Assembly (NCBI GenBank): GCA_035325705.1
Contig: DAOKZI010000006.1
Span: 21,074 to 85,073 of the forward strand
Origin: Gammaproteobacteria bacterium
Lineage (GTDB): Bacteria > Pseudomonadota > Gammaproteobacteria > Ga0077536
Length of the DNA stretch: 64,000 nucleotides
Reading direction: 5' to 3'
Shown here in pieces: positions 14,280 to 54,845 of this stretch (its first letter is position 1; the number at the start of each line of letters is the position of its first letter). The notes beneath the pieces are model-generated. The model did not search any database. It had not been told where the DNA came from and was given only the letters and a program-made list of their open reading frames with translations. The translations under genes and the position numbers were made by a program.

Positions 14280-15884
14280 ATGCGTTCATCGAGGGTCTGC
14301 CGCCCGTTCGCCGGCAGTCTGCTGGCCGGGCTGTTCGTCACACCTGCCGCCGAGGCGATCGTCACGCTGACCGACGAGATCGAAATCGAAGGCTTCGTCA
14401 ATCTGCAGAACGCCGTGCGCGAGCCGCGCTTCGAGTCCGCCGAGCTCGTGATGCAGCGGAACACGGCGCAGATCGAAGGCAAGTACTATTTCCTCAAGGA
14501 CAGCACCGCCTTCGGGCGCTTCCACACCGGGCGCCTCGAGGAGGCGACGCTGACGATCGTCGGCCGCGGCGTCTACGATTCGGTCTACGACATTCGCGGC
14601 TCCTACAGCGACGCCTTCGAGCACGATCGGCACCATCCCGGCGAGGCCGAAGTGAAGCTGCGCGAAGCCTTCATCGACTTTCTGCTGCCGCCGTTCACGC
14701 TGAGGCTCGGCCGCCAGCAGGTCGTATGGGGCGAGACCGACAACTTCCGCGCCCTCGACGCGATCAATCCGCTGGACCTGAGCTGGCACTGGAGCTGGGA
14801 GTCCTGGGAAGACATCCGCATTCCGCTGTGGATGGCGCGCGGTGTCTACGACATCGGCAAGCTCGGGCCCTTCGACGAGTCCTTCGTCGAGGCGGTCTAC
14901 ATCCCGTGGGACGTGCAGCACAACCGGATCTCGACCGATCCCAGACGGCCCTGGGCGCTGCACGGTGCGGGTCTGCGCAAAAACGCGAACACCGTCATCA
15001 TCGACGGTCAGGCGCTGGATCTCGATCTGCGCGTGCACGACGGCAGCCCCTCGCGGCGCTTCGAGAACGGCCAGGCGGGCATGCGCTTCAAGGCCATCTG
15101 GGGCGACGTCGAATTCAGCCTGAACTATTTCTACGGCTACTCGGCGGACACGCGCGCGCGCTTCCAGGCGGATCGTTCGGGCGTCGTCGGCGGGCGCTTC
15201 CACGCCGAGTACGTGACCGAGAACCCGCGCACCCACCTCCTCGGCTTCACCGCGAACTACTCGGACGAGAAGTACACGCAGGCGGTGTTCCGCATGGAAA
15301 CGGTGTTCACGACCGGTGTGCCCGTCGCCATCGACGCGGCGGCACCGCGCGCCGTCGATCCCGACGGCGATCAGTTCGACGAAGCGCGCCGCACCGTGCT
15401 GATGCTCGCCGTCGATCGCCCGACCTGGATACGCTGGCTCAACGATCAGCGCACCTTCTTCCTGTCGACGCAGATCTTCTGGCGCCACTACCTCGACTGG
15501 AGCGCGTTCTATCGCGGCATTCCGGCCGTCGAACAAGCGGTCCTGAACGGGCAGGTGCTGCCCGGCCGCTTCATCAGCACCAATACCGATCGCATCGACC
15601 AGAACGAGTTCGTGATGACCTTCTCCGCGTCCACCAGCTACGGCGCGGCGGGGCTGCTGCAGCCGCGCTTCGTGCTGGCCTACGATCCGCGCTCGACCGG
15701 CGCCTACAATCAGCTCGGCTTCGACTATCTGCTGTCCAAGCACATCCAGCTACGCCTGCAGCAGAACCTGTTCTGGCGCGTGAACGGCGATTCGATCGGG
15801 CCGTGGCAGCTCGGCGATCTGTGGGGACACTCCAGCGGCAACAGCCGCCACGAGACGGTGTTCAGCCTGATCTACCAGTTCTGA
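14280..15884 (+). CDS. DUF1302-family outer-membrane protein
   Basis: 534 aa with a signal peptide. The repetitive beta-rich sequence ends in an aromatic residue (LIYQF). It is the canonical partner of DUF1329. Confidence 0.75.
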   Translation: MRSSRVCRPFAGSLLAGLFVTPAAEAIVTLTDEIEIEGFVNLQNAVREPRFESAELVMQRNTAQIEGKYYFLKDSTAFGRFHTGRLEEATLTIVGRGVYDSVYDIRGSYSDAFEHDRHHPGEAEVKLREAFIDFLLPPFTLRLGRQQVVWGETDNFRALDAINPLDLSWHWSWESWEDIRIPLWMARGVYDIGKLGPFDESFVEAVYIPWDVQHNRISTDPRRPWALHGAGLRKNANTVIIDGQALDLDLRVHDGSPSRRFENGQAGMRFKAIWGDVEFSLNYFYGYSADTRARFQADRSGVVGGRFHAEYVTENPRTHLLGFTANYSDEKYTQAVFRMETVFTTGVPVAIDAAAPRAVDPDGDQFDEARRTVLMLAVDRPTWIRWLNDQRTFFLSTQIFWRHYLDWSAFYRGIPAVEQAVLNGQVLPGRFISTNTDRIDQNEFVMTFSASTSYGAAGLLQPRFVLAYDPRSTGAYNQLGFDYLLSKHIQLRLQQNLFWRVNGDSIGPWQLGDLWGHSSGNSRHETVFSLIYQF

Positions 15885-15898
15885 GCCCGTTCAACCGA

Positions 15899-16100
15899 AG
15901 GCTATCGGCCGTAGAAAACCGCCACCGCGTGCTTGGCCTCGGCGAAGAACAGCCAGCGCTCGACGATCAGGCCCAGCGCGAGCGCGGGGACGGCGAGCCC
16001 GAGCAGCACCGAGCCGGCGGCATCATTGAGCGCGACGCTGGCGAGCGCGGCGAGCGCGGGCAGCACGAAGGCGCAGACGGCGGCGATGCGTCGCAAGACA
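15899..16100 (-). pseudogene. duplicated 3' fragment of the NrfD-like anchor gene (putative soeC)
   Basis: About 200 bp, with two mismatches visible in the aligned stretch relative to 17063-17265. It encodes MRRIAAVCAFVLPALAALASVALNDAAGSVLLGLAVPALALGLIVERWLFFAEAKHAVAVFYGR, matching the C-terminus of the full gene. Confidence 0.8.
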
Positions 16101-16202
16101 GTGCACGGAGTTCGTTCGTGTATGCGTTGCTGAATGTGGTCTTGCTAAAGATCCGCCAAGATCACCGTTTCCTCGCATTCTTTATGAAAGCCTGCCTGGG
16201 GA

Positions 16203-16664
16203 ATGAGAGTTGTGATGAGCGCCGATAGCAAAAAGACACTTCTGCTTATCCTAGTCTTCGTTCTGGGAATGGGATGGGGGCTGATAGGTCCAGTTAATCG
16301 CCTTATGATTAACGATATAGAGACAACTAAATTCACCTACATCATAGATGCATATTTGTGGCCCACACACTTCCTCGCCTTTGGCGAAGGGGGGTGGTAT
16401 CCAGCTTCCATAACTGCAAATGTCCTACTGTTCGGTGTCATTGCGCTTGTAATCTATTGCTCCTTAGAAAGAGCAACAAGGCTGTGGGTTATTTTTTGTG
16501 CCGTGGTCATATGGGGCGCTCTCGTGGGAAGTTTCATAGCCGGATTTAGGCTTCGAGATTTTCAGGTCTTGCCGTTTAGTGCCGGGCCTTTATTTTATGC
16601 GGCGTTCGTCTCTCTCATTATCTTCATCAAAAAGCACAGGCTCTTCGGGAACTCGCCTGGATGA
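16203..16664 (+). CDS. hypothetical polytopic membrane protein in a low-GC island
   Basis: 153 aa with about 4 TM segments. The region 16140-16700 is clearly AT-richer than its flanks, with low-GC3 codon usage. Confidence 0.5.
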   Translation: MRVVMSADSKKTLLLILVFVLGMGWGLIGPVNRLMINDIETTKFTYIIDAYLWPTHFLAFGEGGWYPASITANVLLFGVIALVIYCSLERATRLWVIFCAVVIWGALVGSFIAGFRLRDFQVLPFSAGPLFYAAFVSLIIFIKKHRLFGNSPG

Positions 16665-16708
16665 ATCTGGGCGACCTTCGCTGCGGTTAGGCCGTTTTTT
16701 GACACGCT

Positions 16709-16827
16709 CTGATGGAGATGGCGAAGGCGAACGGACTCGAACCTTATGCGTACCTGCGCCGGGTGTTCACCGAGTTACCGGCGGCAACGACGGTCGACGA
16801 TATCGAAGCGTTGCTGCTCTGGGCCTA
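16709..16827 (+). mobile_element. IS66-family transposase C-terminal remnant
   Basis: Translation LMEMAKANGLEPYAYLRRVFTELPAATTVDDIEALLLWA* matches the conserved IS66 transposase C-terminus. The upstream frame is disrupted, so no intact transposase is present. Confidence 0.55.
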
Positions 16828-17067
16828 AGCGAACTGCCGCACTTTTGGCAATGACGGAGTTGGTGGAGCGCGACCAGAATATCGAGAAGAAGGCCCATGG
16901 AAGCCCTGAACAAGTCCATCCTGGACTCGTGCAGAGACGGCGAGGTCGTGGCAAGCCCGTGCTCGCCTCCGCGAATCAGGCGCTTACGCGATTGATTCGC
17001 GAGCGGACCGGCGATGGCCCGCGGAAACTCCGCTGTTCCCAGGTTTCCCCTCGCGCTCGGCCGAAAG

Positions 17068-17997
17068 CTACCTGCCGTAGAACACCGCCACCGCGTGCTT
17101 GGCCTCGGCGAAGAACAGCCAGCGCTCGACGATCAGGCCCAGCGCGAGCGCGGGGACGGCGAGCCCGAGCAGCACCGAGCCGGCGGCGTCACTGAGCGCG
17201 ACGCTGGCGAGCGCGGCGAGCGCGGGCAGCGCGAAGGCGCAGACGGCGGCGATGCGCCGCAGCTTGCGCGCGTGACGGCGCGCGAGGACATAGCCCATCT
17301 CTTTCAACAAATAGTTCTGCTCGGTGTGCGGCCAGGCCAGCGAGGACACGGCGCCCAGCGCGCCCAGGCCGGTCGCGCTCGCGAGCGTCGAGGTCGGCGC
17401 CTGGCGATCGATACTCCTCCAGTAGCGCCACTTGGCGAGCCCCGCGCAGGCGAGGAGGGCGGCCGTCACGGCCGCGTCGCGCGCATCCGCGACGCCGCTC
17501 CACTGCCGCAGCGCGAGCCACAGCACGGCGCCGCTCGCGAGTGAGAGCAGCAGATAGTTCAGCGGCACGGCGCCGCGGTGCCAGGCGTCGACGGTCTTCA
17601 GCGACGCGTAGATCATCGCGGTCGCATACACCGTCGCCAGCGCGAGCGCGGCGCTCGCGAGCGGCAGGATCGGGTCGACGCCCGTGCCGCGCCATAGCTG
17701 CCGGGCCCAGGCGAGCGCGGGGAGATAGCAGGCCAAGGCGAGCACGCCTTCGCGCGACAGCCAGGAACTGCGCCACTGCGTCAGCGCGCGCCAGGCGCGT
17801 TCCGGATGCCCGAGATGGCGGGTCGAGGACAGCAGGCCGGCGCTGACGAGCACCGCGGCGAGCGCGAGCGCCGTGAGGGCCAAGGCGCCGCGGCTCGCCG
17901 CGTCCCCGCTCGCGGCGTACAGCGCGAGGATCGCGATCAGGCCGTAGCCGGCGCCGGCTGCGGTCGTGAAGAAGACGATCGAATAGGCCGGATTCAC
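17068..17997 (-). CDS. NrfD/PsrC-like polytopic membrane anchor subunit (putative SoeC)
   Basis: GTG start at 17997 overlaps the upstream stop as GTGA. The protein runs from VNPAYSIVFFTTAAGAGYGLIAILALYAA... through about 8 TM helices. The N-terminal part of ORF 17068..18840 lies in an overlapping frame and is ignored. Confidence 0.7.
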   Translation of the reverse strand: MNPAYSIVFFTTAAGAGYGLIAILALYAASGDAASRGALALTALALAAVLVSAGLLSSTRHLGHPERAWRALTQWRSSWLSREGVLALACYLPALAWARQLWRGTGVDPILPLASAALALATVYATAMIYASLKTVDAWHRGAVPLNYLLLSLASGAVLWLALRQWSGVADARDAAVTAALLACAGLAKWRYWRSIDRQAPTSTLASATGLGALGAVSSLAWPHTEQNYLLKEMGYVLARRHARKLRRIAAVCAFALPALAALASVALSDAAGSVLLGLAVPALALGLIVERWLFFAEAKHAVAVFYGR

Positions 17998-54610: not shown

Positions 54611-54845
54611 AATTCGATTCACGGAAACCCTGCAAGAGCAGAGCTTCCGCGGGCCATGGCCGGCCGGCCCGCGAATCCGAGCTTGCTCCGGATTCGCCGA
54701 CCCCGAATAGGTCCGGATAGTCCTGTTCAGGATTTCCTTAGAAAGCGCCGTTAACTACTTGAATTATTGAGATCGACGTTACAGACTTCACGTAACACTT
54801 CAAGTTTGGCGGCCCAGGCCGCCGCCGTGCCGGGGGGCTTGCCGC

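What the first reader, a model, noticed from the sequence alone, without database searches (positions are those of the whole stretch)
15885..17270. Roughly 200 bp direct duplication of the soeC-like 3' end flanking a foreign insert (low-GC membrane-protein ORF plus IS66 transposase remnant)
Positions 15899-16100 match 17063-17265 with two mismatches visible in the aligned stretch. Both copies encode the C-terminal 64 aa of the NrfD-like anchor. Between them lie about 960 bp containing an AT-rich 153 aa four-TM ORF with low-GC3 codons, and the last roughly 39 codons of an IS66-family transposase. A gene 3' end duplicated so as to bracket foreign DNA is the signature of site-specific integration at a gene 3' end, in an attL/attR-like arrangement. 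The element now appears decayed, with no integrase or intact transposase.
Basis: partly seen in the sequence, partly recalled or inferred. Interest (0 to 1): 0.65.

Follow-up and report, generated by a model that had tools for sequence, protein, structure and literature searches.

The report
Gene-end duplication bracketing captured immunity gene
A 1.17-kb piece of scrap foreign DNA, carrying an intact immunity gene against a bacterial Rhs toxin, sits between two slightly different copies of the last 194 bases of a respiratory-enzyme gene; close relatives lack it, and it looks like ordinary recombination rather than a new kind of mobile element.

Summary
Copy A (15888-16095) and copy B (17054-17261) are direct repeats 1166 bp apart. 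They differ at 8 of 201 bases, not two. Both encode the last 64 codons of a DmsC/NrfD-type anchor gene (soeC-like, minus strand). Copy B is the live end of the gene. Copy A is a displaced fragment that still abuts DUF1302, as in relatives.

The roughly 950-bp insert is a mosaic:
- the last 35 codons of an Rhs-type toxin;
- its intact 153-aa, four-segment membrane immunity gene (GC 47% against 69% for the window);
- the last 39 codons of an IS66 transposase;
- a 150-nt MITE-like repeat.

Two near-identical strains from other metagenomes (L084, L180) have the uninterrupted junction. Their allele equals copy B at the two 5' variant sites and copy A at the five 3' sites. That is the product of one crossover within a 38-bp identical stretch.

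My best reading is a Campbell-type single-crossover insertion, or its reversal, of DNA carrying a diverged soeC 3' allele, most simply by homologous recombination. There is no integrase, and none of about 168 homologous loci from other organisms has a second copy. Site-specific integration is not. Interest is modest.

The parts
14280..15884 (+). DUF1302 gene, the native convergent neighbour of soeC
   Evidence: Pfam PF06980, E = 2.6e-23. It holds the same position in L002, L003, L084, L092 and L180.
15885..15901 (.). Spacer A (17 nt), the native intergenic spacer between DUF1302 and the soeC stop
   Evidence: Identical to the spacer in the empty-site loci L084 and L180.
15902..16095 (-). Copy A: displaced, promoterless soeC 3' fragment (64 codons plus stop). 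Public records annotate it as a hypothetical protein.
   Evidence: HMM75578.1. Its 3' part matches the empty-site allele and its 5' part does not.
16027..16064 (.). Inferred crossover interval in copy A: a 38-nt stretch identical in both copies
   Evidence: The alleles of L084 and L180 switch from copy-B type to copy-A type between sites 16065 and 16026.
16096..16206 (+). Remnant of an Rhs-type toxin C-terminal domain: the last 35-36 codons plus the stop, which overlaps the next start as ATGA
   Evidence: 69% identity over 35 aa (E = 6e-16) to the end of the Rhs-CT ORF in L179, and 57% to that in L178.
16203..16664 (+). Intact 153-aa membrane protein with four hydrophobic segments: putative cognate immunity protein (orphan immunity gene)
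   Evidence: Homologues at 30-39% identity share the motifs D.YLWPTH.LAWG, AN..FF and FLAGF. In L178 and L179 the homologue directly follows an Rhs core-end plus CT ORF. GC 0.47, GC3 0.52.
16665..16828 (+). IS66-family transposase remnant: the last ~39 codons are intact, and the degenerate upstream stretch contains stop codons
   Evidence: PF13817, E = 5.9e-14. 72.5% aa identity to an IS66 transposase on a Halioglobus plasmid.
16829..16898 (.). 70 nt of unassigned sequence between the IS66 remnant and the MITE-like element
   Evidence: No match in any fetched locus other than this organism's own contigs. No Rfam hit.
16899..17048 (.). MITE-like or REP-like repeat with ~16-nt terminal inverted repeats (GGAAGCCCTGAACAAG ... 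CTGTTCCCAGGTTTCC). It ends exactly where the DUF1302 stop codon would be.
   Evidence: A second, inverted copy lies at 54623-54738: 82% over the 55-nt core, E = 2e-9.
17049..17067 (.). Spacer B (19 nt), homologous to the soeC-DUF1302 spacer of relatives but of a different allele from spacer A
   Evidence: Alignments: 13 of 19 positions match L002, and the length equals that in L092.
17068..17261 (-). Copy B: the working 3' end of soeC. Its 3' two-thirds carries the diverged (foreign) allele.
17193..17230 (.). Inferred crossover interval in copy B
   Evidence: Same evidence as for 16027-16064.
17068..17997 (-). soeC-like membrane anchor gene (309 aa), last gene of a molybdopterin oxidoreductase / 4Fe-4S / anchor operon
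   Evidence: Pfam DmsC, E = 8e-18, and NrfD, E = 2e-8. Operon genes are listed.
54623..54738 (-). Second copy of the MITE-like repeat, 13 nt downstream of another gene's stop codon

Best explanation
This is an insertion-duplication made by one reciprocal (Campbell-type) crossover.

A DNA unit of about 1166 bp, circular or circularised, carried a 211-bp soeC 3' end plus spacer from a related lineage that is about 4% diverged. It recombined with the soeC 3' end of a chromosome of the L084/L180 type. The crossover fell inside a 38-bp identical stretch (16027-16064 in copy A, 17193-17230 in copy B).

The result keeps soeC whole: native 5' sequence joined to an imported 3' end. The native 3' end (copy A) is stranded next to DUF1302, and the cargo lies between the two copies.

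The cargo is scrap from an Rhs orphan toxin/immunity locus and from mobile elements. Only the 153-aa immunity gene is intact. It is probably the selectable part, giving protection from a competitor's Rhs toxin.

The same crossover run backwards removes the insert precisely. The locus is therefore an occupied/empty polymorphism in the population.

Shown: the anatomy, the identity of each fragment, the empty sites, and the reciprocal allele mosaic.
Inferred: homologous (RecA-type) rather than site-specific recombination, the circular intermediate, the direction of the event, and the immunity function.
For: 1. Repeat and mosaic insert.
2. Empty sites exist in strains only 0.35-0.9% diverged. L084 aligns ungapped to the computationally 'excised' window with 27 mismatches in 3079 nt, and L180 with 10 in 2887 nt. 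Each has only one mismatch inside the repeat.
3. Diagnostic sites, plus strand, copy-A coordinates 16091, 16065 | 16026, 16022, 15917, 15907, 15905:
   - copy A = T,A | T,A,A,G,T
   - copy B = C,G | C,G,C,T,C
   - L084 = L180 = C,G | T,A,A,G,T
   This is a single switch, as a reciprocal crossover predicts.
4. The A/B differences look allelic, not decay. Five of the 7 are synonymous, including a CGA/AGG arginine pair (P about 0.02 under neutrality). Both states at all seven sites occur among the orthologous alleles L084, L092, L002, L089 and L003.
5. The inferred donor haplotype (copy A 5' plus copy B 3') matches outgroup L002 at 5 of 7 sites, so it forms a coherent foreign allele.
6. No recombinase gene lies in the insert or in the window. 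The duplication is unique among 170 soeC loci.
7. Immunity assignment: homologues follow Rhs core-end plus CT ORFs (TIGR03696, E = 5e-6 to 3.5e-19), and the toxin tail is present upstream in the window with an ATGA overlap.
8. The same arrangement appears in three assemblies, and a Logan contig spans the left junction.
Against: - The switch to copy-B type on the 5' side rests on only two sites (16091, 16065). Given 0.4-1.2% background divergence, chance is not negligible (roughly 5%).
- The direction (integration into an empty site, or excision producing L084/L180) cannot be decided.
- No donor lineage carrying the inferred allele, and no circular form, was found.
- A 1.17-kb circle is not a replicon, so a larger integrating molecule with later deletions, or circularisation of a linear fragment, has to be assumed.
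- Under homologous recombination, the 104-nt identical stretch was a likelier crossover site than the 38-nt one. I estimate about 1 in 7 for the 38-nt stretch.
- How soeC was first joined to the mid-toxin sequence at 16095|16096 is unexplained.
- The 104-nt identical stretch cannot be phased from the k = 31 Logan contig, so linkage across it rests on the SPAdes-type assemblies.
Confidence: 0.55

Rival explanations
1. It is the decayed remnant of a site-specific integrative element, of the phage 21 / e14-in-icd or CIME type. The element's attP carried a replacement soeC 3' end. The integrase and most of the element were later deleted. L084 and L180 are either never-occupied sites or excisants.
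For: Direct repeats of a gene's 3' end flank low-GC foreign DNA while the gene stays intact. An empty site equals an attL x attR recombinant. The element-side copy is diverged, as in icd-type elements (own knowledge).
Against: There is no integrase in the insert or the window. None of the ~168 other soeC loci has a duplicated 3' end within 6-10 kb. The repeat's inner edge is fused directly to a truncated toxin ORF rather than to an att arm or int gene, so a deletion would have had to end exactly at the repeat boundary. The homology extends 31 nt on the 5' side of the crossover interval.
Confidence: 0.15
2. The duplication arose in situ. Staggered breaks or replication template switching copied the 211 bp as two identical copies around captured DNA. 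The copies then diverged, and later recombination with other strains produced the allele mosaic.
For: The duplicated unit runs exactly from the spacer edge to one point in the gene, like a long target duplication. The population shows mosaic alleles, for example L092.
Against: The 3.6% coding divergence is mostly synonymous, although copy A has been non-functional since the event. Copy A's 3' part is identical to the functional allele of L084 and L180, while the working copy B carries the differences and is further from L092 (1 of 5 sites against 4 of 5). Two separate recombination tracts would have to end in the same 38-nt interval.
Confidence: 0.1
3. Homology-facilitated illegitimate recombination of a linear fragment from a related strain. 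One end was anchored by homology in soeC, and the other end was joined illegitimately at 16095|16096.
For: The 16095|16096 junction has no clear microhomology and joins unrelated sequences. HFIR has been proposed as the origin of orphan immunity arrays (PMC5361080).
Against: HFIR normally deletes recipient DNA rather than duplicating it. It predicts that copy A is entirely of recipient type, yet copy A differs from L084 and L180 at 16091 and 16065. A duplication would need a second chromosome copy.
Confidence: 0.1
4. It is a metagenome assembly artefact. A loop sharing the 104-nt identical stretch was threaded into the chromosome path, or two strains were merged.
For: The source is a MAG. The copies share an exact 104-nt stretch, longer than common k values. 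The Logan contig breaks exactly where 31-mers become shared between the copies. ERZ794915 shows the empty-site variant at 15997 within copy A, which may reflect mixed strains.
Against: The same structure appears in three assemblies. The left junction was assembled independently. The alternative path would leave a 1166-bp circle with no replication function. The phase across the 38-nt stretch (16065 with 16026) is fixed for any k of 41 or more.
Confidence: 0.07

Closest known systems
Campbell-type insertion-duplication of a circular DNA through one homologous segment (suicide-plasmid or insertion-duplication mutagenesis, F' or lambda-dgal integration by homology; own knowledge)
   Same: The homologous segment is directly repeated on both sides of the inserted DNA. 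The two copies are reciprocal donor/recipient mosaics. Reverse recombination between the repeats gives precise loss. No dedicated recombinase is needed.
   Different: This case is natural and was seen in an uncultured population. The homologous segment is only 211 bp and about 4% diverged. The integrating unit as now seen (1.17 kb) has no replicon or selectable marker other than the immunity gene. The circular form was not observed.
Prophage and element integration into the 3' end of a protein-coding gene with an element-borne replacement end (phage 21 and e14 in E. coli icd; own knowledge)
   Same: The target gene's 3' end is duplicated. The copy joined to the gene differs by mostly synonymous changes, so the gene stays functional. 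The displaced native end is left at the far side.
   Different: There is no integrase or excisionase. The site is not reused in other genomes. The inner edge of the repeat abuts a truncated toxin ORF. The homology extends on both sides of the crossover.
Orphan Rhs / T6SS toxin-immunity modules and acquired orphan immunity genes (PMC3150448, PMC3967940, PMC5361080, PMC10539506, PMC12247911)
   Same: A truncated toxin 3' end is followed by an intact immunity gene. The GC content is lower than the host's. Homologues lie in arrays of orphan Rhs-CT/immunity pairs (L179). Mobile-element debris is associated.
   Different: The module is not in an rhs or T6SS locus. It sits alone at the end of a respiratory operon, with no Rhs core sequence left. 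The toxin and immunity families have no Pfam model and are very rare.
IS66-family insertion sequences
   Same: The C-terminal transposase motif is present: PF13817, and 72.5% identity to a Halioglobus IS66 transposase.
   Different: Only about 39 codons remain. There is no tnpA or tnpB, no recognisable GTAAGCG-type ends in the right place, and no 8-bp target duplication. The IS did not create the 211-bp repeat.

Membership tests
Site-specific integrative element (genomic island, prophage or CIME) | Direct repeats (attL/attR) flank the element | tested here: met
   208-nt repeats with spacing 1166.
Site-specific integrative element (genomic island, prophage or CIME) | Integrase or recombinase gene in the element (or nearby, for a CIME) | tested here: not met
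   The insert holds only a toxin remnant, the immunity ORF, an IS66 remnant and a MITE-like repeat. No recombinase lies in the 64-kb window. The rest of the genome was not visible.
Site-specific integrative element (genomic island, prophage or CIME) | Unoccupied attB in relatives that equals an attL x attR recombinant | tested here: met
   L084 and L180. Homologous recombination predicts the same result.
Site-specific integrative element (genomic island, prophage or CIME) | The same att site is used recurrently in other genomes | tested here: not met
   tblastn of the soeC C-terminus over 176 loci: only L082 and L083 (the same organism) have two copies within the 6-10 kb flanks. Islands longer than the flank would be missed.
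Site-specific integrative element (genomic island, prophage or CIME) | Strand exchange at a fixed short core bounded by recombinase-binding repeats | not testable with these tools
   The crossover is only localised to a 38-nt interval. There is no recombinase to define binding sites.
Campbell-type insertion-duplication by homologous recombination | Repeats are homologous to the target, and the two copies are reciprocal mosaics of two alleles | tested here: met
   Relative to the empty-site allele, copy B is native at 2 of 2 5' sites and foreign at 5 of 5 3' sites. Copy A is the converse. The 5' side rests on only two sites.
Campbell-type insertion-duplication by homologous recombination | A circular donor or excised product exists | not testable with these tools
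   This needs read-level data or outward-facing PCR.
Rhs polymorphic toxin / immunity module (orphan) | Toxin C-terminal domain demarcated by the Rhs core-end motif (TIGR03696, ...DPxGL) | tested here: inconclusive
   The motif is present in the homologous modules of L178 and L179 (TIGR03696, E = 5e-6 to 3.5e-19). In the window only the last 35 codons of the CT remain, so the motif itself is gone.
Rhs polymorphic toxin / immunity module (orphan) | Small immunity gene immediately downstream of the toxin CT, conserved as a pair | tested here: met
   The ATGA overlap lies at 16203-16206. The same toxin-tail plus immunity pairing is found in L178 and L179.
Rhs polymorphic toxin / immunity module (orphan) | The immunity protein neutralises the cognate toxin | not testable with these tools
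   This needs co-expression or competition assays.
IS66 family insertion sequence | Complete tnpA-tnpB-tnpC with terminal inverted repeats and an 8-bp target duplication | tested here: not met
   Only the PF13817 tail is present. A canonical IS66 ends in CGCTTAC just after the stop codon. Here the only CGCTTAC, at 16981-16987, lies inside the MITE-like repeat.
MITE / REP-like intergenic repeat | Short non-coding unit with terminal inverted repeats in several copies | tested here: met
   Two copies with ~16-nt TIRs. No target-site duplication was recognised and there is no Rfam family.

The most novel reading that the evidence does not exclude
The 1166-bp unit is a working, non-autonomous 'immunity cassette'. 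It moves between related strains by using the conserved 3' end of soeC as a portable landing pad. It excises as a circle and re-integrates, either by host recombination or through a recombinase supplied in trans. That would be a route for spreading orphan Rhs immunity genes outside toxin loci.
Probability: 0.1. Interest if true: 0.6.

Novelty: new member of a known kind. Interest (0 to 1): 0.3.

Why it matters
This is a clean natural example of how a bacterium can pick up a single useful gene, here an orphan immunity gene against a competitor's Rhs toxin. No dedicated mobile-element machinery is involved and the target gene is not damaged. Occupied and empty alleles are both still present in the population.

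It also has three practical consequences:
- A 64-aa 'hypothetical protein' in public records (HMM75578.1) is in fact a displaced gene fragment.
- The work defines a rare, unannotated toxin-tail / membrane-immunity pair.
- It shows how allele phasing across short repeats can separate a crossover product from decay.

It does not open a new class of system.

Tried and rejected
- DNA search of the insert against plasmids found nothing. Protein searches of the immunity ORF against plasmids and phages also found nothing.
- The word-indexed protein search of the 153-aa ORF returned only itself. The exhaustive HMMER search was needed to find relatives.
It gave no close strains.
- I looked for degenerate DUF1302 3'-end homology beyond copy B. 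The apparent similarity is the MITE terminal repeat and was rejected.
- I tried to place the IS66 right end using a canonical IS66 from Halioglobus. This was inconclusive.
- Rfam found nothing on the insert or on the second MITE copy.
- Pfam, NCBIfam, PADLOC and PDB sequence searches gave no significant hit for the immunity protein. For the toxin CT of the homologous modules they gave only the Rhs core-end motif.
- A search for full-length Rhs proteins carrying this CT found only a core-motif hit.
- The promoter and terminator scan around the insert gave nothing above shuffled expectation.
- I considered IS66-generated target duplication and rejected it. The family makes 8-bp duplications (own knowledge), and the IS is a stub.
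Full report
**1. Observation**

The window (69% GC) carries a direct repeat. Copy A is at 15888-16095 and copy B at 17054-17261, 1166 bp apart, 95-96% identical and ungapped, with E = 2e-91.

On the minus strand, 17068-17997 encodes a 309-aa DmsC/NrfD-type anchor (Pfam DmsC, E = 8e-18). It is the last gene of a molybdopterin oxidoreductase / 4Fe-4S / anchor operon, so it is soeC-like. Copy B is this gene's last 64 codons plus its stop. Copy A is a second, detached copy of the same 64 codons.

There are 8 mismatches in the 201-nt core, 7 of them coding. The 153-aa low-GC ORF has GC 0.47 and GC3 0.52, against 0.80-0.94 for its neighbours. The last 39 codons of an IS66 transposase match PF13817 with E = 5.9e-14.

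**2. Anatomy of the insert (16096-17048)**

The insert is a mosaic of four pieces.

*(i) Toxin remnant, 16096-16206 (+).* It encodes ...RQCTEFVRVCVAECGLAKDPPRSPFPRILYESLPGE*. This is 69% identical (E = 6e-16) to the C-terminus of an ORF in locus L179, and 57% identical to one in L178. Those ORFs begin with the end of the RHS repeat-associated core domain (TIGR03696; E = 8e-6 and 5e-6). A neighbouring module in L179 scores 3.5e-19, above the family cut-off. They are therefore Rhs-type C-terminal toxin domains, and L179 is an array of orphan CT/immunity modules.

*(ii) Immunity ORF, 16203-16664.* The 153-aa ORF starts in an ATGA overlap with the toxin stop. The word-indexed search found only the ORF itself. 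The exhaustive HMMER search found a handful of relatives of 115-193 aa at 30-39% identity. They share the motifs D.YLWPTH.LAWG, AN..FF and FLAGF. Two of them sit directly after the homologous toxin tails in L178 and L179. The ORF has four hydrophobic segments. Conserved toxin-tail / small-membrane-protein pairing in three independent contexts makes it a putative cognate immunity protein. In the window it is an orphan, because its toxin is truncated.

*(iii) IS66 remnant, about 16665-16828.* This is the degenerate tail of an IS66 transposase.

*(iv) MITE-like repeat, 16899-17048.* After 70 unassigned bases comes a 150-nt repeat with ~16-nt terminal inverted repeats. It has a second, inverted copy at 54623-54738, again just downstream of a gene's stop codon. 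Rfam has no match for either copy.

The junction of copy A with the toxin remnant is at 16095|16096. It joins unrelated sequences with no clear microhomology.

**3. Surroundings**

The rest of the window is ordinary chromosomal metabolism and transport. I found no integrase, no Rhs or T6SS genes, no intact IS and no other low-GC island.

**4. Is the assembly real?**

The source is an uncultured gammaproteobacterial MAG. The same arrangement is present in ENA assemblies ERZ794933 (100% identical over 2 kb) and ERZ794915 (one difference). A Logan contig from SRR2107133, seen in two samples, equals window 16035-16942 exactly, so the left junction was assembled independently. It starts just where 31-mers stop being shared between the two copies.

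Linkage across the 104-nt identical stretch cannot be checked without reads. I keep a small probability for an artefact.

**5. Relatives**

Without exception, the other relatives have the convergent soeC-DUF1302 junction uninterrupted:
- L002 (90% aa identity): 20-nt spacer.
- L003 and L085-L088: 36-nt spacer.
- L092 (2.8% nt divergence): 19-nt spacer.
- L089: a 410-nt spacer carrying GTAG-type REP hairpins, with contigs L093-L095 breaking at a similar hairpin.

Two contigs from other metagenomes are almost the same strain as the window and have the empty site with copy A's 17-nt spacer. They are L084 (NCBI WBZO01037072) and L180 (JGI 3300028830).

Copy A therefore keeps the ancestral junction with DUF1302. 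Copy B's 19-nt spacer is homologous to relatives' spacers and stops exactly where the DUF1302 stop codon would be. The MITE-like repeat begins there.

Among 170 fetched loci with a soeC C-terminus, only this organism's own contigs have a second copy.

**6. The key result**

I removed 1166 bp in silico by joining the window at 16045 to 17212. L084 aligns to this sequence ungapped with 27 mismatches in 3079 nt. L180 aligns with 10 mismatches in 2887 nt. In each case only one mismatch lies inside the repeat, at 15997. That site is also polymorphic in ERZ794915.

The seven coding sites that distinguish the copies are listed below (plus strand, copy-A coordinates).

| Sequence | 16091 | 16065 | 16026 | 16022 | 15917 | 15907 | 15905 |
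|---|---|---|---|---|---|---|---|
| Copy A | T | A | T | A | A | G | T |
| Copy B | C | G | C | G | C | T | C |
| L084 = L180 (empty site) | C | G | T | A | A | G | T |

The empty-site allele is copy-B type at the two 5' sites and copy-A type at the five 3' sites. It also has copy A's spacer. The occupied and empty forms therefore differ by exactly one reciprocal crossover inside the 38-nt identical stretch (16027-16064 in copy A, 17193-17230 in copy B).

**7. Are the two copies diverged duplicates or two alleles?**

Four observations point to two alleles.
- Five of the 7 differences are synonymous, including a CGA/AGG arginine pair. The probability is about 0.02 if the changes were neutral.
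- Both states at all seven sites occur among orthologous single-copy alleles (L084, L092, L002, L089, L003).
- The non-functional copy A is identical in its 3' part to the functional allele of L084 and L180. It is also closer to L092 (4 of 5 sites) than the working copy B is (1 of 5 sites).
- The haplotype made of copy A's 5' part and copy B's 3' part matches outgroup L002 at 5 of 7 sites, so it forms a coherent foreign allele.

The insert therefore arrived together with a soeC 3' end from a related, roughly 4% diverged lineage. That lineage also carries the MITE-like family.

**8. Mechanism**

The simplest account is a Campbell-type single crossover. A circular or circularised DNA carrying that 211-bp segment recombined with an L084/L180-type chromosome, or the reverse reaction produced the empty form. 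A 38-bp perfect match is enough for RecA-type exchange (own knowledge), and no recombinase is encoded nearby.

The outcome preserves soeC and traps the cargo. The only intact cargo gene is the immunity gene, so that is what selection could act on. Acquisition and retention of orphan immunity genes is well documented for Rhs and T6SS systems (PMC3150448, PMC3967940, PMC5361080, PMC10539506, PMC12247911).

Three things remain unexplained:
- the origin of the soeC / mid-toxin joint;
- how so small a unit became circular, unless a larger molecule integrated and was then trimmed;
- the direction of the event.

**9. Rivals**

It lacks an integrase and recurrence, and its att boundary would be fused to a truncated ORF.
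- *In-situ duplication followed by divergence.* It fits poorly with the synonymous bias and with the working copy being the odd one out.
- *Homology-facilitated illegitimate recombination of a linear fragment.* It predicts that copy A is wholly of recipient type, which the two 5' sites contradict.
- *Assembly artefact.* It is made unlikely by three assemblies and an independent junction contig, but it is not excluded across the 104-nt stretch.

**10. Verdict**

The att-like interpretation is partly supported. The mechanism is most likely homologous insertion-duplication, not site-specific integration.

This is a new instance of known processes. A rare, unannotated Rhs toxin-tail / membrane-immunity pair comes out of the work as a by-product. 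Interest is modest (0.3).

Noticed in passing
window 16899-17048 and 54623-54738: A MITE/REP-like repeat of 116-150 nt with ~16-nt terminal inverted repeats (GGAARCCCTG.AA.AG). The ends loosely resemble IS5-type ends (from memory). Both copies lie 13-19 nt downstream of a gene's stop codon, in the same orientation relative to that gene. Copy 1 has an extra 34-nt hairpin. No target duplication was recognised and Rfam has no match.
   Followed up: partly
L089 7606-8016; ends of L093-L095: In a relative (DUF1302 95% nt identical), the soeC-DUF1302 spacer is 410 nt and holds inverted GTAGGTCGGGCTGACGAAGGAAGCCCGAC hairpins (GTAG-type REPs). Several Logan contigs break at a similar GTAGGT... hairpin shortly after the DUF1302 stop. 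This convergent intergenic spot seems to collect small repeats in the clade.
   Followed up: partly
window 15902-16096 (-): The displaced soeC fragment is annotated in public records as a 64-aa hypothetical protein (HMM75578.1, MGYP001232405729) starting at a TTG codon. It is a gene fragment, not a gene.
   Followed up: yes
L179 1-3303 (JGI 3300082540) and L178 (Logan SRR22388347): L179 is an array of three orphan Rhs core-end / CT / immunity modules. The CT paired with the immunity family is about 120 aa and cysteine-rich, with GHIGFG and RQCTEFV motifs. These are reminiscent, from memory only, of NlpC/P60-LRAT-type Cys/His enzymes. Pfam, PDB and PADLOC give no match, and the domain is very rare in the 5.8-billion-protein database.
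   Followed up: partly
protein P0015 (Logan contig of 1572 bp, not fetched): A 60-aa gene call joins the last 52 residues of DUF1302 to an unrelated N-terminus (MHASRPAD...). This suggests another rearrangement or truncation at the DUF1302 3' end in some strain.
   Followed up: no
window 15997 (copy A); L083 locus position ~10100: ERZ794915's otherwise identical contig has A instead of G at 15997 in copy A (Leu to Phe). This is the same state as in the empty-site strains L084 and L180. It is either a shared polymorphism or a consensus drawn from mixed occupied and empty strains in that sample.
   Followed up: partly
window 16968-17001: A perfect 9-bp stem (CGCGAATCA / TGATTCGCG) has a loop that contains CGCTTAC, the canonical IS66 terminal heptamer. 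It lies 153 nt beyond the transposase stop and inside the MITE-like repeat. Whether it marks the old IS66 end or is a coincidence is unresolved.
   Followed up: partly
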